Program-made: the position numbers and the translations under genes | From: Kiritimatiellia bacterium | GTDB lineage: Bacteria; Verrucomicrobiota; Kiritimatiellia; RFP12; JBMNHG01 | Assembly (NCBI GenBank): GCA_050950285.1 | Contig: JBMNHG010000003.1 | Location: 554,337 to 618,336 of the forward strand | Reading direction: 5' to 3' | Length of the DNA: 64,000 nucleotides | Notes under the pieces: model-generated | Told to the model about the DNA's origin: nothing | What the model saw: only the letters and a program-made list of their open reading frames with translations | Database searches by the model: none | In this document: positions 19,599-29,763 of the stretch, piece after piece | Numbering within the stretch: the first letter of the stretch is position 1 | Layout of the letters: every line of letters begins with the position of its first letter

Positions 19599-21530
19599 GT
19601 GCGCCAAGCGAAGCTCGGCGCTTCTTGCGGGGTGGAAGTCCCCGCCGAGTAAGGACCAGCCATCCACTCGTACCGAGTGTTGGCACTATGGAAGAGGAGT
19701 CGAATCCGAATGAAGTAGTGTAAGCGTACACAGGGAACTTCGCAGGCCGCAGGGAGGATGCACCCTCCCGAAGCGGTTCAGCCCCGTTAATTGATCATGC
19801 GCAGGGCGACATGTTTGCCGACATGGAAGCCAGCAACAAGGACGCGCAACCGGCTTGCGTCCGGTGACTGCGCCGGGGTCTACGGCGCGCGGCATGCGGA
19901 GAGAGAAGCGAACGGGAACTTGGGAGACCCGCCGCCGTCCGCGTCCGCGAGGGCGCGGTAGCGGCCGCCGAGCCGGAAGGGAAGGCGGCGCGACGCGGCG
20001 GCGGGAGTCAGACCGCCCCATAGTACTCCGAGACGGGCGAGCCGGTCACACGGGGAAGGGGGCGGCGGGGCTGCGAAGCCCGCAAAGGGAACAGGAAAGA
20101 TGGACACGACAGGCTGTCAAACACTGCAAACCTCACTGCGGGGAATAGCGGATCGGGCGCGACGCGACCCGAAGGCGCGATTCCGCGACGTGTACAGGCT
20201 GCTCAACGAGGCGAACCTGCGCGAATGCTTCCGGGCGTTGCGAAGGGACGCCGCGCCGGGGATTGACCGGGTGACGTTCGACGACTACGAACGCGACCTC
20301 GACGCCAACCTCGCGGCGTTGGTCGAGCGGCTCAAGCACAAGCGGTACCACGCCCGACTGGTGCGCAGGGTGAACATTCCAAAGGGGGGCGGGAAACTGC
20401 GTCCCCTCGGAATCCCTGTGCTGGAGGACAAACTTCTGCAAATGGCCGTGGCGAAGGTGCTAACGGCGATCTACGAAGAGGACTTCCTGCCGGCGAGCCG
20501 GGGCTACCGTCCCGGCGGCGACGCCCGCGAGGCCAGCCGCGAATGGGCGGCGAGGCTCGGCGGGGGGAGCTATGCGTGGGTGGTCGATGCGGACATCAAG
20601 GGCTTCTTCGAGCACGTCGATCACGACTGGATGCTCAGGATGCTGGAGCTTCGCATCGACGACAAGCCGTTTCTGCGGCTGGTGCGCAAATGGCTCAAGG
20701 CGGGGGTGCTCGAAACGGACGGACGGGTGCTGCATCCGACGGAGGGGACGCCCCAAGGCGGGGTGGTCTCGCCGGTGCTGGCGAACGTCTACCTGCACTA
20801 CGCGCTGGATCTCTGGTTCGACCGCGTGGTCAGGAGGACGACGCCGGGCCGATGCGCGATGCTGCGCTACGCCGACGACTTCGTGGTCGCCTTCGAGCGG
20901 CGCGAGGACGCGGAACGCTTCCTTGGGGAACTGCCCGGGCGACTGGGCAAGTTCGGCCTGGAGCTGTCGGGGGAGAAGACGCGGCTGGTGCGCTTCGAGC
21001 GGGGCAACCCGTCGGGCGACAACGGCGGCTTCGACTTCCTGGGGTTCCAGTACCACTGGGAGCGTACGCGAAACGGACGCTGGAAGGTGCAGCGCCGGAC
21101 GGCTCCGAGCCGTCTCCGGCGGTCGGTGGAACGCTTCGCCGAGTGGATCAAGGCCAACCGGGGCGAACGCCTGCCCGTTCTCATGGAACGGCTGGGGCGC
21201 AAGCTCGCGGGGTACTGGCAGTACTACGGCGTGACGGGCAACGGGCGCAGCCTGTGCAAGTTCTGGAGGCAGGTGGTGGCTGGGCTCTACAAGTGGCTCA
21301 ACCGCAGAAGCCAGAAGCGGGGCTTGACCTGGGTCCGTCTCAATGCGATCCTCAAGCGCCACGGGGTGCCGGGACCGCGGATCACCGAGAGCGGGCAGAT
21401 GCTGTTTTCCTTCATGGGGGCGCGTTGAAGACCGAGTGCAAAGCGAGCAGTCCCGAAGAGCCCGGTGCGGGAATTCCGCACGCCGGGATCCGTGCGGGGG
21501 GCGCCCGGCAACGGGCGTCCCTACCGCGAT
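19599..21530 (+). mobile_element. Group II intron (RT-encoding, IIB-like, no endonuclease domain), 1932 nt
   Basis: 5' GTGCG; domain V GAGCCCGGTGCGGGAATTCCGCACGCCGGGATC; domain VI ending CCCTACCGCGAT with bulged A at -8. Removal restores GGC A|AT ATC ACG GCC TAT (GNITAY). Confidence 0.95.
20100..21428 (+). CDS. ltrA: Group II intron reverse transcriptase/maturase
   Basis: APGIDRVT, IPKGGGKLRPLGIP, DADIKGFF, GTPQGG, RYADD, FDFLGF, domain X GYWQYYG; no C-terminal HNH. Confidence 0.95.
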   Translation: MDTTGCQTLQTSLRGIADRARRDPKARFRDVYRLLNEANLRECFRALRRDAAPGIDRVTFDDYERDLDANLAALVERLKHKRYHARLVRRVNIPKGGGKLRPLGIPVLEDKLLQMAVAKVLTAIYEEDFLPASRGYRPGGDAREASREWAARLGGGSYAWVVDADIKGFFEHVDHDWMLRMLELRIDDKPFLRLVRKWLKAGVLETDGRVLHPTEGTPQGGVVSPVLANVYLHYALDLWFDRVVRRTTPGRCAMLRYADDFVVAFERREDAERFLGELPGRLGKFGLELSGEKTRLVRFERGNPSGDNGGFDFLGFQYHWERTRNGRWKVQRRTAPSRLRRSVERFAEWIKANRGERLPVLMERLGRKLAGYWQYYGVTGNGRSLCKFWRQVVAGLYKWLNRRSQKRGLTWVRLNAILKRHGVPGPRITESGQMLFSFMGAR

Positions 21531-22534: not shown

Positions 22535-24001
22535 CCTCCCGGCCGTCTGCCTGTAGCCTACAGGCATTATGAAAAAAAAAGCGACCAAGGCGCGTAAACG
22601 CGCAACCAAGAGGCCAGCGAGAACATCGTACACCACCCTGCGCCAGATCGTCCAGTGGATTCCCGCGGGATTGCCGGACAAGATCGCGCGCGACATCGGG
22701 GCGGACATCCGCGGATTCTCCTGCGCCAGCCATGTGCTGGCGCTGCTCTACGGCCATATCGCCCGCGCGGGCAGCCTGAACGAGATCTGCGACGCGGCCC
22801 GGCTGCACGAGCCGGAGCTGAACCGCATCCGGGGCGCGACGGCCCCGAAGCGCAACACCTTCTCCAACGCCAACCGGAGGCGCGACCCGGAGATCGCGGA
22901 GCGGCTCTACTGGGAGGTGTTCGAGCACCTCCGGACCATCTGCCCGTCCTTCACGCAGTACAAGAAGCACAAAGGCTTCATCTTCCGCCTGAAGCGCGGG
23001 ATATTCGCCATCGACTCGACCACGCTGAAGCTCACGCTCGACTCGATCGACTGGGCCAGGCACCGCCGGAAGAAGGCCGCCGCCAAAACCCACATGGCCC
23101 TCGACGTCGGCAGCAGGCTGCCGACGTTCGCGGTCGTGGAGGACGCCGCGCACCACGACTCGACGCGGGCGGACGCGCTGTGCGCGGGGCTGAAGGACGG
23201 CGACGTGCTGCTGGCGGACCGCGCCTACGTCGACTTCCTCTTCCTGCACGGACTCGCCGCGCGCGGCATCTTCTTCGTCCTGCGGGAGAAGGAGAACATG
23301 GACTTCGAGGTGCTGGAGGAGAGAGGGCATCCGGACCGGCGCATACTCAAGGACCAGACCATACGCCTGCGGGGCAGGCTGACGGCGGGAAAGTACCCCG
23401 GGCCCCTGCGCCGCGTCGCCGCCGTCGTCGAGGTGGACGGGCAGGATCGGGAAATGACGTTCATCACCAACCATTTCGCGTGGAGCCCCCGCACCGTCTC
23501 CGAGCTCTACCGCGCCCGGTGGGTCATCGAGTCGTTCTTCAAGGAACTCAAGCAGACGCTCCAGCTCAAGGATTTCGTCGGGTACAACGAGAACGCGGTC
23601 AAGTGGCAGGTCTGGGTCGGGCTGCTGGCGCATCTGCTGCTGCGCTTCCTCAAGCACGTCTCGGAATGGGGACTGAGCTTTTCCCGGCTCGCCGGGGTCG
23701 TCAGGTCCGCCGTCTGGATGAAGATCGACCTGCTCGACGCCCTGCGGAAGTATGGGACAGCAGGCGGCCCAAAGCGCCCTGTAATTTCCGGGAAACAGCT
23801 CTATTTCCAAGGATTCGAGCCATTCGCGAGCCGGCCCGTGGGATAGCACATGCCCCAAAACCCCTGTTTTCGGGCATCCGGGCCGATCGCGCAGGCAAAC
23901 ACGTTTTCCGGGAACGCCTTTGAAATCGCGATAAATCCCTGCAAATCAATGGGGGAAAGGGGGCAATATGCCCGTTTTCAGCCGCCTATGGGATGCTAGT
24001 G
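22428..24001 (+). mobile_element. IS4-family insertion sequence, 1574 bp
   Basis: Perfect 18-bp TIR CACTAGCATCCCATAGGC (22428-22445 / 23984-24001); 9-bp TSD AAGCAACAC (22419-22427 / 24002-24010). Confidence 0.95.
22569..23846 (+). CDS. IS4-family DDE transposase
   Basis: AIDSTT, ADRAYVD, LYRARWVIESFFKELKQ (YREK motif). Confidence 0.95.
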   Translation: MKKKATKARKRATKRPARTSYTTLRQIVQWIPAGLPDKIARDIGADIRGFSCASHVLALLYGHIARAGSLNEICDAARLHEPELNRIRGATAPKRNTFSNANRRRDPEIAERLYWEVFEHLRTICPSFTQYKKHKGFIFRLKRGIFAIDSTTLKLTLDSIDWARHRRKKAAAKTHMALDVGSRLPTFAVVEDAAHHDSTRADALCAGLKDGDVLLADRAYVDFLFLHGLAARGIFFVLREKENMDFEVLEERGHPDRRILKDQTIRLRGRLTAGKYPGPLRRVAAVVEVDGQDREMTFITNHFAWSPRTVSELYRARWVIESFFKELKQTLQLKDFVGYNENAVKWQVWVGLLAHLLLRFLKHVSEWGLSFSRLAGVVRSAVWMKIDLLDALRKYGTAGGPKRPVISGKQLYFQGFEPFASRPVG

Positions 24002-24442
24002 AAGCAACACGGTAAAATCATCAGAATTACAGCCATGTTTCTACTGCTAATCGTCACGCACATTTTGGTTTACGTCGCTGGGATTTATCGCTTTTATAAA
24101 AAAGATTTCTGCAAGTCGGAAACGGGCATGCTCCCAATAGCCTTGGCGACAAATGCGGAATTCATGGCAGCATGTGAAACAATCCGAAACTCAACAAATA
24201 CGGTTGAAGTATACAACGCTGCAACTCTTTTTGTTCCCCCTCTTTCAAAATTCCTACAGGAGCATCCCGATGGTATCCATATTGCCGTTATAATTAATTT
24301 ACTCGGATGGAAGGAACCGGTTATGGGGCATAATATGATCTACTTTTTGAAACAAGAGGACTGCCAAGTTTACTATATGAAATTTACTTCTTTGCGCCCT
24401 CACCATATAAATTCTGTTTCTATTGGCATCGGCGAGATGTGA
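23999..24442 (+). CDS. Putative immunity protein for cassette 2 (start codon now supplied by the IS end)
   Basis: The original ATG AAG CAA CAC lies at 22416; after the IS it reads GTG AAG CAA CAC GGT. N-terminal TM helix; low GC. Confidence 0.7.
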   Translation: MKQHGKIIRITAMFLLLIVTHILVYVAGIYRFYKKDFCKSETGMLPIALATNAEFMAACETIRNSTNTVEVYNAATLFVPPLSKFLQEHPDGIHIAVIINLLGWKEPVMGHNMIYFLKQEDCQVYYMKFTSLRPHHINSVSIGIGEM

Positions 24443-24557
24443 CTATAGAGTCCGGCAAGCCGTGCTGGATTGAGATTAGGGGTTCCAAGCAGATTTCGGA
24501 TTCTGGCAACTGCTGCAACTATAAGGACTCTTCACCTGACGAGCGGGGGTGGTACTG

Positions 24558-24869
24558 ATGGTCTATCGTCAAGTTCGGATGATTCTATTGGGCTTCATGT
24601 TTTGCCTGTCGGGTTGTCGCAATGAACATGCAGTACAACCCGACAAGGAAATTGGCTTGGCGGCACTGCAAGACTATTGCCTCGGCGAACGATTGACTGT
24701 CGAGGATTTTGGCCATGCCCGGGTTTACACTGATGCAAAATATGACGTTTGTGTCGAATACATAACAAAACCCAATGTCGTTCCGCGGCATGTCTTGCTT
24801 CTATTCATTAAGGATGGTCGCATTGTTGAAAAACAACGCGATATTCAAGACGTGTCGGTGCTACAATGA
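24558..24869 (+). CDS. Orphan immunity-like lipoprotein
   Basis: MVYRQVRMILLGFMFCLSGC lipobox; TGATG-coupled to an upstream stub. Confidence 0.65.
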   Translation: MVYRQVRMILLGFMFCLSGCRNEHAVQPDKEIGLAALQDYCLGERLTVEDFGHARVYTDAKYDVCVEYITKPNVVPRHVLLLFIKDGRIVEKQRDIQDVSVLQ

Positions 24870-25376
24870 CTCCAACCATGTACATGGCTTTTCGCCCGTT
24901 GCTCGTCAATAATCTTTGGGTGTCGGTCAGCGCCGTCACGAACATCTACACCGCCAACGAACTGAACCAGTATTTCCTGATTTCCAATCATGTCAATCAT
25001 GTCAATCCTGTCCAAATTTCTCCCGTATACGATTTAGACGGCAATATGACATGGGACGGGCGTTTCAGCTATGCGTATGATGCCGAGAACAGGCTTGCCG
25101 CCGCCTATTCCAACGGCCTGTGCGTAGTCTTCAACGCCTACGACCACATGAGCAGACGCGTGTTGAAAGTCACCCCAACCGCGACGCACACCTACCTCTA
25201 TGACGATTGGAATCTGGTGCAGGAAACAATTTCAACCGCATCCGGCACGACAACCAACCATTACGTTTGGGGACGTGATTTGTCTGGAAGTATGCAGGGT
25301 GCCGGCGGCGTCGGCGGCTTGCTGGCGGTACAGACGGGCGGCATGTGGTACTTCCCCTTCTATGATAACAACGGAA
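24866..25376 (+). pseudogene. Orphan RHS cassette 3 fragment (5' exon of the second intron; rest of core and tip deleted)
   Basis: Homology to cassettes 1/2 from about 24932; ends at YDNNG-A. Confidence 0.85.
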
Positions 25377-26073
25377 GTGCGCCAAGCGAAGCTCGGCGCT
25401 TCTTGCGGGGTGGAAGTCCCCGCCGAGTAAGGACCAGCCATCCACTCGTACCGAGTGTTGGCACTATGGAAGAGGAGTCGAATCCGAATGAAGTAGTGTA
25501 AGCGTACACAGGGAACTTCGCAGGCCGCAGGGAGGATGCACCCTCCCGAAGCGGTTCAGCCCCGTTAATTGATCATGCGCAGGGCGACATGTTTTCCGTC
25601 ATGGAAGCCAGCAACAAGGACGCGCAACCGGCTTGCGTCCGGTGACTGCGCCGGGGTCTACGGCGCGCGGCATGCGGAGAGAGAAGCGAACGGGAACTTG
25701 GGAGACCCGCCGCCGTCCGCGTCCGCGAGGGCGCGGTAGCGGCCGCCGAGCCGGAAGGGAAGGCGGCGCGACGCGGCGGCGGGAGTCAGACCGTCCCATA
25801 GTACTCCGGGACGGGCGAGCCGATCACACGGGGAAGGGGGCGGCGGGGCTGCGAAGCCCGCAAAGGGAACAGGAAAGATGGACACGACAGGCTGTCAAAC
25901 ACTGCAAACCTCACTGCGGGGAATAGCGGGTCGGAAGTCGGGCGCGGTTCCCTGTCAGGGGAACGCGACGGCGACCGAGTGCAAAGCGAGCAGTCCCGAA
26001 GAGCCCGGTGCGGGAATTCCGCACGCCGGGATCCGTGCGGGGGGCGCCCGGCAACGGGCGTCCCTGCCGCGAT
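25377..26073 (+). mobile_element. ORF-less group II intron derivative, 697 nt
   Basis: Near-identical to 19599-21530 except that 1278 nt of the RT ORF (20152-21429) are replaced by a 43-nt hairpin (25930-25972). Domain V is intact; ends CCCTGCCGCGAT. Confidence 0.93.
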
Positions 26074-26141
26074 ACGGCGTACTTGGAAATGCTCAGGATA
26101 CGAGAAGGACCCCTGCCTACCTCCTCCGAAGGAGTTCTGAT

Positions 26142-26579
26142 ATGACTTCGCATTGTTTTTCGGTTGTCCAGCTGGCGAGTTCGTTGCCCATGATACTACT
26201 CCTGTTCAGCTCTTTGGGGTGCAAGAGCAGGGAGTACATCGCGCGAGAGCCTGCCGTCCATGAAATGTTGCGGGAAATGCGTGTTCCTGCGATTGACATG
26301 CGAGAAGCGCATCTTCAGGATGTGGTCGAGTATCTCAACGCCGCGCTAAATGAATACGGTCTAGGCGAAGCAAGAAAAGAAACGATCATCGTATTCGAGT
26401 GTCCCGCGCACTTGTCTCGGCGAAAACTGAATCCCGTCCCAATTGCCAAGGACAAATCGATTGACACTGGGATGACGAAGATCGTGAGTGTCATGGATAT
26501 TGCAGATGAAGTCTGCTCGCGCGCAAACGTCAACCTCGTCATCAAGAGCAACCGCGCAATCTTCACCGGCAAGCGATGA
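26142..26579 (+). CDS. Orphan immunity-like lipoprotein with an STN/secretin-N-like domain
   Basis: GGAG RBS; LLLFSSLGC lipobox; VPAIDMREAHLQDVVEYL...VSVMDIADEVCSRANVNLVI pattern. Confidence 0.55.
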   Translation: MTSHCFSVVQLASSLPMILLLFSSLGCKSREYIAREPAVHEMLREMRVPAIDMREAHLQDVVEYLNAALNEYGLGEARKETIIVFECPAHLSRRKLNPVPIAKDKSIDTGMTKIVSVMDIADEVCSRANVNLVIKSNRAIFTGKR

Positions 26580-26927
26580 AAATCACCTGCGGCTACGCCT
26601 GAGACCCCGTCGGCAGCCGCACGAGCGCGACCGGGTACGACGAAAACGGCGCGCCGTTTTTGGCGGGGTCTACGCTTTTCACCGGTCACGCGGGTGCATG
26701 TCGCTTCGGTTCCTTGCTTGTTTCCACCAGGAAGGAAGTGCACATCACTGCGTGACTTTTCCAAAACCCAGTCGTTGCGCCCGCCAGTCGCGCACGGTTG
26801 CGCATTGACGCTCCGGCGATGATGTGGTTAACTTGACTCTTTATGCCTGCAAAGAGCCCCATGTTCAACCGGCAGCCGGACCGACTGAAGCGGATCGGCT
26901 TGTTGGACCGTGCCAGCGAGAAGCGGG

Positions 26928-28769
26928 ATGCCCGTGATTGAAAGGACACGCGGGCGCTGGATAGGACGGTTGTCGGGCTGGATCGGGGTTGTCGGGGCCC
27001 TGCTGTTCCTGGCGCTGTCTCTGGTCAAGGGCGACTGGCCCTTCGAGCCCTCCCGCGGCGGCGGCTGGCCGGTGCCGCTCTCGGTGAAGGCGTGCCTCCC
27101 GCGCAGCCTGCTGGCGCTGGTCGTCGGCTTGGCGCTGGCCTGGATGCCCGGCCTGGAACCGTGGCGGAAGCGGGTGGGCCAGTGGCTCTTCCACTCTCCG
27201 CGCCGGCGTATCCAATGGGTGTTTGGCGTGGCGGCGTTTCTCCTCTACGCGGGCATCGCCTGGTTCCGCTTCAAGGGGCTTCCCTACCTCGACGACGATG
27301 TCGCCGCGCTCTTCCAAGCCCGCATCTTCGCCTCGGGCCGCATTGTCCTGCCGCTTCCCGAACACGGCCAATTCTTCGACCAGTTCGGCTTGCTGGGGAC
27401 GATTCATGGACATCCCTTCGTCTGCACCATGTATCCGCCGGGCCTCTCGTTGCTGTTGCTGCCCGGCGTGCTGGCCGGCGTGCCCTGGCTGATGGTGCCG
27501 ATAACCGGCGGGCTGCTGGTCGCGGCGACCATCGCGCTGGGCGCCGAGTTGCTCGGCGAACGGGCCGGGCGCCTGGCCGGTCTCTTCATGCTCGGCTCGC
27601 CGTTCATCGGCATCCTTGCCGGCACGCACCTCTCGCACATTCCGACGGCCCTGCTCCTGGTCGTCTGCTGGCTGGCCGCCGTGCGGCTGCTGCGCACGGG
27701 GCTGACGCGCCACGGGGTCGTGGCCGGCGCCGCCTGGGGCGCCGCCTGCCTCTTCCGTCCGCTGACGGCGCTGGTCGTGGGGGCTGTCATCGCCCTGGGG
27801 GTGATGGTGCAATGGCGGCGCGCGCTGGCCGCCTGGCGCGGCGTGCTGGCAGCGTTGCTGCTGGCCGGGGCGGGCGTCGCGCTTCTGGCCCTCTGGCAGC
27901 ATGCGACCGTCGGCGATGCGCTGACCCCCGGGCATGTCATCGGCATGCGCCGCTACGGCAGCATGGGCTTTGTGCGCTTTACCGACAAGCTGGAGCATAC
28001 GCCGGAGATCGCCTGGCATCACACCCTCGCCCGCATGCGGGCGGTCAACGACCGCCTGCTGGGGTGGCCGCTGCCGGCCTTTGCGCTGGTGCTCTGGGCT
28101 CTTCTTGTGCGGCGTGCGCGGCCGGCTGGCTTCTGGCTGTTTTCCGGCTGGCTCGCCCTGCTGGCCATCTACGCCTTCTACTGGTACTACGAGGAGTACT
28201 GGCCGGCGCGCTACACGACGGCCGGCATCCCGCTGCTGCTGATCCTGGCGGCGCGCGGCTGGACGCTGCTGCGCGGGAATGCGGGCGGAACCGGCAAGAC
28301 GGCGCGCCGGGCACGGCCCGTGGCGCACGCCGTGCTCGCGGTCGGGCTCGCCTATGCCGCCCTGGTCGCCTGGCCCTGGGAGTGGAACTGGCTGGGCTGC
28401 CAGCCCGGCGACATGGAGCATGTGCTGCCCAGGGCGCTGGAGGCCTTCGGGATCGACCGCGGCATCGTCTTCATGCGGTGTAAAGGACGCATCCTCAAGC
28501 AGGGCGACGCGTACAACGACTATTACGCCGCCGGCTTCATCCGCAACGACCTTCACATGGACGGACCGCTGGTCTTCGCGCGCAACCAGCGCAGGGACAA
28601 CGAACTGCTGATGAACGACCCCTCCCGCGGCCCCTTCTATCTCTACACCTTCCACCGCGCCACCCACCAGGCCACCCTGGATCAATACGTGCTCGTCGAC
28701 GGCTCCTGGCAGCTCGAGCGAATGGGGCAATATCCCGCCGAGGGATGCTGTCCGTGCGGCATGCCCTAG
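26928..28769 (+). CDS. GT-C (ArnT/PMT-like) membrane glycosyltransferase
   Basis: YLDDDVAALFQARIFASG acidic loop, MYPPGLSLLL, many TM helices. Confidence 0.7.
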   Translation: MPVIERTRGRWIGRLSGWIGVVGALLFLALSLVKGDWPFEPSRGGGWPVPLSVKACLPRSLLALVVGLALAWMPGLEPWRKRVGQWLFHSPRRRIQWVFGVAAFLLYAGIAWFRFKGLPYLDDDVAALFQARIFASGRIVLPLPEHGQFFDQFGLLGTIHGHPFVCTMYPPGLSLLLLPGVLAGVPWLMVPITGGLLVAATIALGAELLGERAGRLAGLFMLGSPFIGILAGTHLSHIPTALLLVVCWLAAVRLLRTGLTRHGVVAGAAWGAACLFRPLTALVVGAVIALGVMVQWRRALAAWRGVLAALLLAGAGVALLALWQHATVGDALTPGHVIGMRRYGSMGFVRFTDKLEHTPEIAWHHTLARMRAVNDRLLGWPLPAFALVLWALLVRRARPAGFWLFSGWLALLAIYAFYWYYEEYWPARYTTAGIPLLLILAARGWTLLRGNAGGTGKTARRARPVAHAVLAVGLAYAALVAWPWEWNWLGCQPGDMEHVLPRALEAFGIDRGIVFMRCKGRILKQGDAYNDYYAAGFIRNDLHMDGPLVFARNQRRDNELLMNDPSRGPFYLYTFHRATHQATLDQYVLVDGSWQLERMGQYPAEGCCPCGMP

Positions 28770-28794
28770 CCGGACCGGGGGCGGCGGCCTCGGT

Positions 28795-29763
28795 TCAGAG
28801 GACCAAGCGTGGCAGGTGCCTCAGCTCGATGCCGACAAAGACGTCGAGCCAGGGGAGCTTGACCATCAGCGAGAGGACCAGCACGGCGACGAAGGCGGCG
28901 CACCAGGCCATCAGCCCCCGCTCGCGGTAGAGCTTCTCGGGCTTCTGGGCCGCCGAGTCCTCCTTGCAGGCGATCGCGAGATACTTGCAGAAGAGGGCGA
29001 TCAGGAACGGCACGGACAGCAGCAGCTCGATCTTGTACTTGAGCAGGAAGATGCCGACGAAGAAGGTCGAGCACATCGCGTAGCAGGCCGTCGAGACCAG
29101 CAGCGAGGCCTCCGTGTAGTACTTGAACGACTTGCGGTAGTTCCCCGCCAGCGCGGGGTCGCCGATCATGCGGTACTCCGAGAAGCGCTTGGCCGCCATC
29201 AGGAAGGCGCCGCCCATCCAGTAGCCGAGCAGGATGCTGACGGGCGGCAGCCGGTCCGCCGTCACGACGAACCACCCCAGCAGCATGCGGATCATGTTGT
29301 TGACCGACTCCGACAGGACGTCGAGGAAGGGCACGTCCTTGGTGCGCATGGGCTCCACGTTGTAGACGATGCCCATGGCCAGCAGCCAGGCGAGCGTCAG
29401 GGCGAAGTAGATGTTGATGCTCAGGGAGAGGGCCAGGCCCGCCACGGCCAGCGCGGCATATTCGGCCATGACGCAGCCGAACTTCACGTTGGACACGACC
29501 ACGGGGCGGTGCTTCTTGGTGGGGTGGAAGCGGTCGAAGCGCGCATCGAGCCACTCGTTGACCACGTAGTTGGCCGAGGAGGCCAGGCTCGTGGCCAGCA
29601 GCGCGACGGCCAGATCGATCCAGAGGCGGGCATCGAGCCCGGGCCGGGGCTTGAGCATCAGCAGCGCGACGGCGAAGCCGGGCAGGATGAAGAGGTTTTT
29701 GATCCAGTGGTCAAGCCGTGCGATGCGCACGTAGTCCATGAACGTGGCTTTGGGTTGTGTCAA
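28795..29763 (-). CDS. UbiA-family prenyltransferase, decaprenyl-phosphate phosphoribosyltransferase-like
   Basis: RLDHWIKN, NYVVNEWLDARFDRFHPTKKHRP, AAKRFSE; TTG start with GGAG RBS. Confidence 0.85.
   Translation of the reverse strand: MTQPKATFMDYVRIARLDHWIKNLFILPGFAVALLMLKPRPGLDARLWIDLAVALLATSLASSANYVVNEWLDARFDRFHPTKKHRPVVVSNVKFGCVMAEYAALAVAGLALSLSINIYFALTLAWLLAMGIVYNVEPMRTKDVPFLDVLSESVNNMIRMLLGWFVVTADRLPPVSILLGYWMGGAFLMAAKRFSEYRMIGDPALAGNYRKSFKYYTEASLLVSTACYAMCSTFFVGIFLLKYKIELLLSVPFLIALFCKYLAIACKEDSAAQKPEKLYRERGLMAWCAAFVAVLVLSLMVKLPWLDVFVGIELRHLPRLVL

What the first reader, a model, noticed from the sequence alone, without database searches (positions are those of the whole stretch)
25377..26073. 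Streamlined ORF-less mini-intron: RT ORF replaced by a tidy 43-nt hairpin
Seen: 1278 nt of the RT ORF are replaced by GTCGGAAGTCGGGCGCGGTTCCCTGTCAGGGGAACGCGACGGC (25930-25972), which folds as CGCG.TTCCC/GGGAACGCG closed by GGTCG/CGACC. The RT start region (first ~17 codons) and domains I-III and V are kept. Known: the maturase binds domain IVa around its start codon, and ORF-less introns can be served in trans. Inference: a non-autonomous, MITE-like partner that depends on the RT encoded about 5 kb upstream.
Basis: partly seen in the sequence, partly recalled or inferred. Interest (0 to 1): 0.75.

Follow-up and report, generated by a model that had tools for sequence, protein, structure and literature searches.

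The report
ORF-less group II mini-intron, probably stranded
This is a real, shortened self-splicing intron that has lost its own reverse-transcriptase gene and must borrow the enzyme from full-length sister copies; such helper-dependent introns are already known in bacteria, and this copy also carries a change that probably stops it from moving.

Summary
Window 25377-26073 is a 697-nt ORF-less copy of a 1932-nt group II intron (window 19599-21530). It is 98.9% (5' 558 nt) and 99% (3' 101 nt) identical to that copy. The RT ORF loop of domain IV is replaced by a hairpin.

The genome holds 8 full copies, one copy cut by a contig end, one fragment, and only this one mini. All sit at YD-repeat codons of RHS genes.

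For function:
- DI-DIII, DIVa and DV are unchanged.
- EBS1 (UUCCGU) pairs 6/6 with its own exon.
- At least 4 intact RT genes are available in trans.

Against current mobility:
- It is single copy.
- The conserved bulged branch-site A of DVI is G.
- The 3' flank is not RHS.

ORF-less relatives with the same deletion site occur in three other genomes and one metagenome contig. One of these genomes has two copies sharing this hairpin's base.

Verdict: a non-autonomous intron of the kind described in Thermosynechococcus (PMC2882425). It is a new member of a known kind and probably immobile now.

The parts
19599..21530 (+). Full-length sister intron (1932 nt), interrupting an RHS gene at ...YDNNG|NITAYVDENG
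   Evidence: RF02005 scores 106.1 bits at 19635-19888. The 3' exon carries the Rhs_assc_core domain, TIGR03696, 80.8 bits.
20100..21428 (+). RT/maturase ORF (442 aa, no endonuclease domain found), the candidate trans-acting helper
   Evidence: TIGR04416 at 343.9 bits against a cut-off of 300. Pfam finds RVT_1 and GIIM only. Four copies in the genome have the same 442-aa ORF.
24914..25376 (+). 5' exon: an orphan RHS core fragment. Its homology runs from homing site B to homing site A. The ORF starts at ATG 24866.
   Evidence: About 40 rows of homologous RHS-module segments in the genome. The homology begins at the NLW just after site B. Weak RHS_repeat hit.
25371..25376 (+). IBS1 (ACGGAA), the last 6 nt of the 5' exon
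   Evidence: Complementary 6/6 to EBS1 at 25594-25599.
25377..26073 (+). The ORF-less mini-intron (697 nt; GUGCG...AU)
   Evidence: Whole-intron minimum free energy -339 kcal/mol, z = -3.34 on 20 shuffles.
25382..25701 (+). Domain I (closing helix CCAAG/CUUGG in the minimum-energy fold)
   Evidence: RF02005 match at 25413-25666.
25594..25599 (+). EBS1 (UUCCGU) in the terminal loop of the CAUG/CAUG hairpin. It differs from the full copy's UGCCGA at 25595 and 25599.
   Evidence: The loop position matches the RF02005 consensus hairpin.
25706..25843 (+). Domains II (25706-25783) and III (25791-25843). The mini-specific C>U at 25794 turns a C-G pair into U.G.
25844..25998 (+). Domain IV (closing helix CGGGGCUGC/GCAGUCCCG). 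The DIVa arm is 25857-25920, with the RT start codon at 25878-25880 inside the GAUGG/CUGUC stem.
   Evidence: 25824-25929 is identical to the full copy.
25926..25982 (+). DIVb stub hairpin that replaces the RT ORF loop. The sequence absent from full copies is 25935-25972.
   Evidence: The same base architecture occurs in two loci of genome G034.
26001..26034 (+). Domain V, identical to the full copy
26037..26070 (+). Domain VI. The 2-nt bulge at 26065-26066 reads UG instead of the family's UA, so the branch-site A is replaced by G at 26066.
   Evidence: Consensus fold of 11 family sequences: A in 9, G in the mini and in one decayed fragment. A in all 14 other sequences that cover this position in the alignment.
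26074..26579 (+). 3' flank: not RHS. AAGGAG at 26129-26134 and ATG at 26142 start a 145-aa ORF with a signal-peptide-like N-terminus.
   Evidence: No other copy in the genome.

Best explanation
Window 25377-26073 is a natural ORF-less (non-autonomous) member of a group II intron family that homes into YD-repeat codons of RHS toxin genes.

The ribozyme parts (DI-DIII, the DIVa arm with the RT start region, DV) are kept almost letter for letter. The ORF loop of DIVb is reduced to a stable hairpin. With no RT/maturase of its own, it can only be folded, spliced or moved by the protein of the full-length copies in the same genome (inferred).

Its EBS1 is tuned to its own 5' exon, so it was inserted or maintained as a working intron (inferred from covariation).

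Today it is most likely stranded:
- It is single copy.
- Its branch-site adenosine is G, which should block lariat formation and complete reverse splicing and leave at best hydrolytic splicing. This follows from established group II chemistry.
- Its 3' exon was replaced by unrelated DNA, probably by recombination between intron copies (inferred).

The base of the stub is shared with ORF-less copies in another genome, so the hairpin form is probably an older lineage. Its ribozyme parts would be kept similar to the local full-length introns by recombination (inferred, moderately supported).
For: Identity and deletion map.

Copy census, G000: 8 full copies, 1 copy cut by a contig end, 1 fragment, 1 mini.

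Helpers:
- Four copies have the 442-aa ORF with 0-5 differences.
- One more (C2:684460) has an in-frame ATG two codons downstream (my reading).
- One (C7:30361) has ACG where the others have ATG.
- Two are frameshifted.
- The RT matches TIGR04416 at 343.9 bits.

EBS1/IBS1:
- Mini: UUCCGU with ACGGAA, 6/6.
- The sister copy at 19599: UGCCGA with ACGGCA, 5/6.
- Other copies: 4-6/6.
- The EBS1 variant UGCCUA sits at UAGGCA exons.

Differences from the bulk of the family in 659 aligned ribozyme positions:
- Intron position 219, G>U, unique to the mini.
- Position 223, A>U, shared only with C2:684460 and G040:C33.
- Position 418, C>U, unique; it keeps the pair as U.G.
- The branch-site change A>G (intron position 690), unique among the aligned copies that retain most of the ribozyme.

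DVI structure: a UA bulge flanked by helices, with two compensatory pairs.

ORF-less relatives with the same deletion site:
- G300:C66:185-874, complete, 690 nt.
- Metagenome contig L044.
- G040:C96, 5'-truncated.
- G034:C27 and G034:C199, which share GGGTCGGAAGTC...GACCGAG with the mini and have different 3' flanks.

Stub comparison: mini versus G034 scores above all but 2 of 2000 shuffles.

Co-resident cognate RT genes are present in G034 and G040.

DV-DVI identity: mini to G000 full 99%; G034 ORF-less to G034 full 98%; mini to G034 ORF-less 93%.

Chimeric flanks occur only across introns. Uninterrupted sites are always A-A (18 of the 20 loci I picked) or B-B (24 of 27 rows).

Precedent: ORF-less TeI3 introns with a DIVb deletion, mobilised in trans (PMC2882425, passages read). 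Hydrolytic splicing without a branch A, and lariat-dependent full reverse splicing (PMC3280974, abstract and introduction passage read).
Against: - No RNA evidence. Laying 2 DNA and 2 RNA runs gave no exon-exon joint, and the RNA contigs that fit came from diverged relatives.
- The host 'gene' is an orphan RHS fragment with a foreign 3' flank, so there is no obvious selection for splicing.
- The remnant reading frame from the RT ATG (25878) stays open through DV, DVI and the 3' splice site to 26579. Ribosomes could therefore disturb folding.
- The branch-site assignment rests on a consensus fold and position (8 nt from the 3' end), not on experiment.
- Common descent of the G000 and G034 stubs rests on about 12 + 7 shared nucleotides. 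The distal hairpins are not alignable.
- The ribozyme tree places ORF-less copies with their co-resident full copies. That also fits independent local deletions. The AU test does not reject one clade either (p = 0.17).
- The hairpin's excess stability is modest (6 of 200 shuffles as good).
Confidence: 0.65

Rival explanations
1. One reading: an actively mobile, MITE-like parasite of the autonomous intron, currently spreading with the RT supplied in trans.
For: - The core is intact and DIVa is kept.
- EBS1-IBS1 pairing is perfect.
- At least 4 intact RT genes are available.
- Two hairpin-stub copies sit at different loci in G034.
- ORF-less TeI3 introns outnumber their helpers in T. elongatus (PMC2882425).
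Against: - One copy against 8 full copies in a 99.35%-complete, 12-contig genome.
- The branch-site A is G.
- An empty paralogous target with an identical 40-nt 5' exon (G000:C2:228226) is not invaded.
- The exact 44-nt filler occurs in no other species genome scanned.
Confidence: 0.12
2. An inert relic: a dead intron copy in a broken RHS orphan, neither spliced nor mobile, whose tidy look only reflects its youth.
For: - Single copy.
- Branch-site change. The same A>G is seen in a visibly decayed fragment, G040:C120.
- Foreign 3' flank, and the host fragment lies between an IS4-family transposase (22569-23846) and non-RHS DNA.
- Degenerate remnants of the family exist elsewhere: G040:C127 lacks DV, and G000:C3:185471-185854 is a fragment.
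Against: - The two EBS1 changes both create Watson-Crick pairs with its own exon. By my own arithmetic, two of four changes falling in 6 of 659 positions and hitting the right bases is about 1 in 10,000.
- The only other change in a helix keeps the pair.
- The stub is a structured hairpin whose base architecture is kept in G034 with a compensatory G-C to A-U change.
- Introns without a branch A can still splice by hydrolysis (PMC3280974).
Confidence: 0.25
3. Each ORF-less copy, this one included, arose locally and independently from a resident full-length intron. The RT ORF would be lost at the base of the DIVb stem, for example by RT template jumping or slipped recombination. On this view no old ORF-less lineage exists.
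For: - In the ribozyme tree the mini nests among G000 full copies, and G040:C96 is sister to the G040 full copy (95/96 support). At least 2 origins are forced by well-supported branches.
- The deletion borders coincide with the conserved UCGG/CCGA stem in all five ORF-less forms.
- The stubs differ: one long hairpin form and three different short loops.
Against: - The mini and the two G034 copies share the non-parental insertion GTCGGAAGTC and an A>G just before it. These are absent from all full copies in 4 genomes. Stub similarity beats all but 2 of 2000 shuffles.
- A simple jump does not create 38 new nucleotides.
- The AU test does not reject a single clade (p = 0.17).
Confidence: 0.3
4. 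Assembly artefact: a collapsed or mis-joined repeat.
For: - The intron is an 8-copy repeat.
- Contigs of two public DNA runs, as laid, did not cover 25935-25972. Such contigs drop rare variants, so this is weak.
Against: - The stub is unique, structured sequence, not a junction of two repeat pieces.
- The 3' flank contigs of two runs start at 26036 and carry G26066 with no differences.
- Independent assemblies of other genomes show the same kind of element.
Confidence: 0.02

Closest known systems
ORF-less TeI3 group II introns of Thermosynechococcus elongatus (Mohr, Ghanem & Lambowitz 2010, PMC2882425; passages read)
   Same: - Deletion of the ORF inside DIVb, with the DIVa region kept.
- Related ORF-bearing introns in the same genome can supply the protein.
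- Good EBS/IBS pairing with the flanking exon.
- EBS divergence between copies.
   Different: - TeI3 has 17 copies with one shared break-point and was shown to be mobilised in trans. Here there is one copy in this genome and nothing has been shown experimentally.
- TeI3 helpers carry D/En domains. This RT has none detectable.
- This copy has G at the branch site.
- Here ORF-less copies resemble the local full copies more than each other.
The 'ORF-less' category of the bacterial group II intron database (Simon et al. 2008, seen only as a reference entry; category described in PMC8919778, passages read)
   Same: A complete six-domain ribozyme without an IEP, in a bacterial genome.
   Different: I could not compare sequences with that database. 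The structural class of this intron (A-F, CL, ML) was not determined here. The only assignment is Rfam RF02005.
Group II introns lacking a branch-point A that splice by hydrolysis (summarised in PMC3280974, introduction passage read)
   Same: No adenosine at the bulged position of DVI.
   Different: In those subclasses the loss is a family trait. Here it is a private substitution of one copy, while 9 of 11 aligned relatives keep A.
MITEs and other non-autonomous partners of autonomous mobile elements
   Same: Internal deletion of the coding part, retention of the parts the trans-acting protein needs, and coexistence with autonomous copies.
   Different: No amplification in this genome. Mobility would run through RNA and reverse splicing, not a transposase.

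Membership tests
Group II intron ribozyme | 5' GUGYG and 3' AY boundaries | tested here: met
   GUGCG at 25377-25381 and ...GAU at 26071-26073. The boundaries match the in-frame exon junction deduced from uninterrupted paralogous sites.
Group II intron ribozyme | Domain I fold recognised by a curated covariance model | tested here: met
   RF02005 at 105.9 bits against a gathering score of 49, full model length.
Group II intron ribozyme | Domain V (about 34-nt hairpin with the AGC triad) | tested here: inconclusive
   RF00029 scores 30.5 bits, below its gathering score of 40, E = 6.4e-4. The DV part aligns well and the AGC is present. The sequence is identical to the full copies.
Group II intron ribozyme | Domain VI with a bulged branch-point adenosine 7-8 nt from the 3' end | tested here: not met
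   The helix and bulge are present, but the bulged base at 26066 is G. It is A in 9 of 11 aligned relatives.
Group II intron ribozyme | EBS1-IBS1 pairing with the 5' exon | tested here: met
   UUCCGU (25594-25599) pairs with ACGGAA (25371-25376), 6/6. It covaries among copies. EBS2 and EBS3 were not identified.
Natural ORF-less (non-autonomous) group II introns, TeI3-like | ORF lost from the DIVb loop with the DIVa region kept | tested here: met
   Similarity of the stub to the ORF's last codons is only suggestive (41 of 2000 shuffles as good).
Natural ORF-less (non-autonomous) group II introns, TeI3-like | A closely related IEP-encoding intron in the same genome | tested here: met
   8 full copies, at least 4 with an intact 442-aa RT ORF.
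Natural ORF-less (non-autonomous) group II introns, TeI3-like | Splicing or mobility promoted in trans by that IEP | not testable with these tools
   Needs expression and mobility assays. The laid public reads gave no verdict.
MITE-like amplified non-autonomous element | Multiple dispersed copies of the short form | tested here: not met
   1 copy in G000. 2 hairpin-stub copies in G034. 0 exact filler matches in genome contigs.

The most novel reading that the evidence does not exclude
The hairpin-stub mini-intron belongs to an old non-autonomous lineage. It rides on the RHS-homing autonomous introns and is repeatedly homogenised with them by recombination in each host genome. The intron copies, mini included, are the breakpoints at which RHS toxin-gene modules are duplicated, deleted and re-joined. 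All homing sites share one codon phase, so splicing of the chimeras would stay in frame. This would be a bacterial case of intron-mediated exon shuffling in polymorphic toxin genes.
Probability: 0.3. Interest if true: 0.65.

Novelty: new member of a known kind. Interest (0 to 1): 0.36.

Why it matters
In itself the element adds one more natural ORF-less bacterial group II intron with resident helper copies, in a little-studied lineage. The taxonomy of the window's genome is not given. The only titled relative contig is a Kiritimatiellia MAG, and the runs holding the locus are labelled digester or bioreactor metagenomes.

It is a compact natural experiment. The same ribozyme occurs with and without the ORF in one genome. 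The mini has a retuned EBS1 and a private branch-site change. So trans-maturase action, hydrolytic versus branching splicing, and the cost of the ORF for mobility could all be tested with one pair of constructs.

The wider context is the more interesting lead. An intron family specialised on a repeated protein-coding motif of RHS toxin genes, with chimeric exon flanks found only across introns, suggests that these introns drive rearrangement of toxin modules.

Tried and rejected
- **Public reads.** 14 DNA runs hold half or more of the sampled words. I laid 2 DNA and 2 RNA runs. There was no exon-exon joint. The RNA contigs were 90-95% alike and ran on into unlike sequence, so they come from relatives. 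The stub 25935-25972 and the mini's EBS1 letters were not covered by the Logan contigs. My arithmetic on table 2 shows that the depth in that bin comes from the edges alone. These contigs drop minor variants, so this gives no verdict on presence, expression or splicing.
- **Exact 44-nt filler in genome contigs:** 0 hits.
- **Exact 17-mer GCGGGTCGGAAGTCGGG.** It recurs twice in G000, inside a 4.7-kb duplicated GC-rich coding repeat, with no similarity beyond it. I take this as chance.
- **Stub as a diverged remnant of the ORF end.** Local alignment score is 21 for the mini, with 41 of 2000 shuffles as good. For the G034 stub 372 of 2000 shuffles are as good. Suggestive at most.
- **EBS2 and EBS3.** I looked by eye for complements of exon positions -7 to -13. 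One candidate (UGUUG at about intron position 80) lies in a stem of the RF02005 consensus. The internal loop before the EBS1 hairpin gave no convincing pairing. Left unassigned.
- **Structural class of the intron.** Not determined. The only papers naming RF02005 (two copies of the Rfam 15 article) just list it in a table.
- **Ancestral state of the 3' flank.** The only same-genus genome (G001, 92% complete) has no match to 26074-28800 and none to the intron.
- **One origin of all ORF-less copies.** The tree needs 3 changes (at least 2 forced by supported branches), but the AU test does not reject one clade (p = 0.17). Two short rows (G034_C27, G034_C240) were dropped before the tree.
- **Literature on group II introns in Rhs/YD-repeat genes.** In one search with min_terms 2, none of the 15 papers listed (of 89) held 'group II intron' together with 'YD repeat', and the five that held 'group II intron' with 'Rhs' were, by title, on plant RNA helicases or chloroplast genomes. 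This is no proof that nothing is in print. Subscription journals are not covered.

Full report
**What is there.** Rfam finds two copies of the same group II intron domain I in the window, at 19635-19888 (106.1 bits) and 25413-25666 (105.9 bits), both RF02005 with a gathering score of 49.
- The first belongs to a 1932-nt intron (19599-21530). It encodes a 442-aa RT/maturase at 20100-21428. NCBIfam TIGR04416 scores 343.9 bits against a cut-off of 300. Pfam finds RVT_1 and GIIM and no endonuclease domain.
- The second is the reported element, 25377-26073, 697 nt, GUGCG...GAU.

BLAST and global alignment show mini 1-558 matching full 1-558 at 552/558, and mini 597-697 matching full 1832-1932 at 100/101. 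The host flanks are 72% identical on the 5' side and unrelated on the 3' side. Between the two blocks, 1273 nt of the full copy (the RT ORF after codon 17-19) are replaced by 38 nt (25935-25972).

**Copy census.** The window lies in a 4.05-Mb genome of 12 contigs, 99.35% complete. BLAST with the full intron finds 8 full-length copies (96.8-100% identical), one copy cut by a contig end, one 384-nt fragment at 90%, and the mini as the only short form.
- All full copies read identically at both deletion borders, as do full copies from three other genomes. None contains the filler.
- Four copies carry the 442-aa ORF with 0-5 amino-acid differences.
- One more (C2:684460) has an in-frame ATG two codons downstream (my reading).
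- One (C7:30361) has ACG in place of the ATG.
- Two are frameshifted.

Helper protein is therefore available in trans from several loci, not only from the copy upstream.

**Anatomy of the mini.** The minimum-energy fold gives the expected six-domain layout (-339 kcal/mol, z = -3.34 on 20 shuffles; helices listed):
- DI 25382-25701.
- DII 25706-25783.
- DIII 25791-25843.
- DIV 25844-25998, with two arms.
- DV about 26001-26034.
- DVI 26037-26070.

The first DIV arm (25857-25920) holds the RT start codon inside a GAUGG/CUGUC stem and is identical to the full copy. The second arm (25926-25982) is the stub. It is an interrupted hairpin of -29.7 kcal/mol, z = -2.24, with 6 of 200 shuffles as stable. 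Its two outer helices (GCG/UGC, UCGG/CCGA) are the ones that close the ORF loop in the full-length introns. DV is aligned by RF00029 at 30.5 bits, below that family's gathering score of 40, and is identical to the full copies.

**What the mini changed.** I aligned 659 ribozyme positions against all 8 full copies and relatives from other genomes. The mini departs from the bulk at four places.
- **Two lie in the 6-nt EBS1 loop.** G>U at 25595 is unique. A>U at 25599 is shared only with C2:684460 and G040:C33. Together they turn UGCCGA into UUCCGU, which pairs 6/6 with the mini's own exon end ACGGAA. The sister copy pairs 5/6 with ACGGCA, and a third variant, UGCCUA, sits at UAGGCA exons with 6/6. 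The loop is the terminal loop of the hairpin that the RF02005 consensus also shows. By my own arithmetic such a hit by chance is about 1 in 10,000.
- **The third change** (C>U at 25794) keeps a DIII pair as U.G.
- **The fourth is A>G at 26066.** In a consensus fold of 11 family sequences, DVI has a conserved two-base bulge UA, 8 nt from the 3' end, flanked by helices with two compensatory pairs. The A is kept in 9 of 11. The exceptions are the mini and a decayed fragment, G040:C120. This is the position and shape of the branch-point adenosine.

By established group II chemistry, loss of that A prevents branching. Splicing can then proceed only by hydrolysis, and the linear product cannot complete reverse splicing, which is the normal route of retrohoming in bacteria (PMC3280974, abstract and introduction passage).

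**Relatives without ORF.** Searches of 61 and then 319 genomes of the same order, plus one pattern scan each of genome contigs and metagenome contigs, found further ORF-less forms. All have the ORF removed at the same stem.
- A complete 690-nt copy, G300:C66:185-874.
- A metagenome contig, L044, cut at intron position 34 by the contig end.
- A 5'-truncated copy, G040:C96. The genome-contig scan found the same short stub in a contig titled as a Kiritimatiellia MAG.
- Two copies in G034 (C27 and C199), both starting at contig ends.

The first three have short loops (UCGG-GUGAUAA-CCGA and the like). The two G034 copies share the mini's non-parental junction GGGTCGGAAGTC and the closing ...GAC(G)ACCGAG. 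They fold into the same first three helices, with a G-C to A-U compensatory change, but have a different distal hairpin (-29.1 kcal/mol, z = -3.77). Their 3' flanks diverge after 15 nt, so they are two loci. The stub similarity between the mini and G034 beats all but 2 of 2000 shuffles. G034 and G040 also hold cognate RT genes, 83-88% identical. In G300 (81% complete) none was found with this query.

**Lineage or repeated local loss?**
- In DV-DVI the mini is 99% identical to G000 full copies. The G034 ORF-less copy is 98% identical to a G034 full copy. The two ORF-less copies are 93% identical to each other.
- In a tree of the ribozyme parts the mini sits among G000 full copies. G040:C96 is sister to the G040 full copy (95/96 support), and G300 pairs with L044. 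Supported branches force at least two origins of the ORF-less state, yet an AU test does not reject a single clade (p = 0.17; two short rows dropped).
- The shared non-parental junction argues that at least the hairpin form is one lineage whose ribozyme parts are homogenised with local full copies. The short-loop forms may be independent losses.

I rate lineage plus homogenisation somewhat above independent origin for the hairpin form, without decisive evidence.

**Host context.** All copies sit after the first base of an Asn codon in YD-repeat motifs of RHS-type genes:
- Site A: ...FP(F/L)YDNNG|NI(T/I)AY...
- Site B: ...YAFDNIG|NALWTSLNAV...
- Site C: ...YDLDG|NMLTNG...

The genome has many uninterrupted sites, and these are always self-consistent.
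- 18 of the 20 site-A paralogues I picked from the hits continue with the A-type 3' sequence. One of the 20 bears an intron and one alignment stops short of the site.
- 24 of 27 site-B 5' flanks continue with the B-type 3' sequence. The other 3 bear introns.
- 24 of 27 B-type 3' flanks are preceded by the B-type 5' sequence. Two are preceded by an intron, and one is the mini's orphan.

Chimeric flanks occur only across an intron:
- C6:16155 is 5'A-3'B, with a tandem duplicate of the B-to-A segment around it.
- C8:817490 is the reciprocal, 5'B-3'A.
- C2:688273 is 5'B-3'C.

Two of the chimeras also have the poorer EBS1 matches: 4/6 for C6:16155 and 5/6 for C8:817490. Recombination between intron copies is the simplest reading.

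The mini fits this pattern.
- Its 5' exon (24914-25376) is an orphan B-to-A segment. It follows an IS4-family transposase gene (22569-23846) and two small AT-rich ORFs.
- Its 3' flank shares only the first two bases with the expected RHS continuation. That continuation is seen at the paralogue G000:C2:228226, whose last 40 exon bases are identical to the mini's.
- The flank leads into an unrelated 145-aa ORF with its own AAGGAG and ATG at 26142.

So no intact host gene depends on this intron's removal.

**Assessment.** The element is certainly an ORF-less derivative and therefore non-autonomous. The retuned EBS1, the pair-preserving change and the structured stub argue that it lived as a working intron. 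Several things argue that it is not spreading now:
- It is single copy.
- An identical paralogous target is empty.
- The branch-site base is G.
- The exon context is rearranged.

Whether it still splices by hydrolysis with borrowed maturase is open. The public reads I could lay gave no verdict.

**Comparison with what is known.** Natural ORF-less bacterial group II introns served in trans are established.
- The 17 TeI3 introns of T. elongatus have one DIVb deletion with ORF remnants on both sides and good EBS/IBS pairings, and they were mobilised by IEPs of related introns (PMC2882425, passages read).
- 'ORF-less' is a standing category of the bacterial intron database (PMC8919778, passages read).

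This element works like those and meets their structural criteria. It fails the branch-A criterion of a canonical lariat-forming intron and the copy-number criterion of a MITE-like element. It is a new member of a known kind. The wider setting, an intron family homing into RHS YD-repeat codons with chimeric exon flanks, seems less ordinary. One literature search listed no paper on group II introns in Rhs or YD-repeat genes, which is weak evidence of novelty.

Noticed in passing
window 19599 and 25377; G000:C2:684460, C2:688273, C6:16155, C7:30361, C8:817490, C8:821093: The intron family homes into protein-coding YD-repeat motifs of RHS genes ((Y/F)DN(N/I)G|N), always after the first base of an Asn codon. 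Dozens of uninterrupted sites of the same kinds remain in the genome.
   Followed up: partly
G000:C6:15591-18551; G000:C8:817400-819480; G000:C2:688183-690294: Chimeric exon flanks (5'A-3'B with a tandem duplicate of the 460-nt B-to-A segment, the reciprocal 5'B-3'A, and 5'B-3'C) occur only across introns. All sites share one codon phase, so splicing would stay in frame. This looks like recombination between intron copies reshuffling RHS modules.
   Followed up: partly
G000:C8:821093-824963: Two full-length introns lie head to tail with no base between them. The first is 96.8% identical with a frameshifted ORF. The second is 99.1% identical with an intact ORF, followed by non-RHS DNA. In the ribozyme tree the first copy groups with the intron of genome G040 (93/100 support), so G000 holds two sublineages.
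   Followed up: no
window 24866-24930: The RHS homology of the orphan fragment that carries the mini begins at ...VN|NLW, the position of homing site B. The fragment is therefore exactly the segment between two intron sites. Upstream lie two small AT-rich ORFs (23993-24442, 24549-24869), possibly immunity-type genes.
   Followed up: no
window 25878-26579: The remnant reading frame from the RT start codon has lost the family's stop codon (TTGAAGA became ACGGCGA). It stays open through the stub, DV, DVI and the 3' splice site, in frame with both the spliced exon frame and the downstream ORF (ATG 26142).
   Followed up: no
L039 1517-1829 (G040:C127): A 313-nt remnant keeps only the first 124 nt and last 50 nt of the intron around about 139 nt of unrelated hairpin-rich sequence. 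It lacks DV. It and G040:C96 are flanked by GGGGTCTGTCCC-type short repeats.
   Followed up: no
G000:C3:185471-185854 (minus strand): A 384-nt fragment matches intron positions 20-406 at 90% identity. It is an older decayed insertion outside the RHS sites.
   Followed up: no
window 22569-23846: An IS4-family transposase gene (DDE_Tnp_1, E = 2.6e-27) sits between the intron-bearing RHS gene and the orphan fragment. The 150 nt after it (23850-24003) recur at 97-100% identity at several genome sites.
   Followed up: no
window 26001-26034 and family members: In DV the base opposite the G of the AGC triad is A (GGGAUC) where the RF00029 consensus has U (GGUUC). This holds in all family members aligned and may be why RF00029 stays below its gathering score.
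   Followed up: no
G000:C3:222152-222168 and 670788-670804: The 17-mer GCGGGTCGGAAGTCGGG at the 5' side of the stub recurs exactly in a 4.7-kb duplicated GC-rich coding region. There is no similarity beyond it, so it is probably chance.
   Followed up: yes
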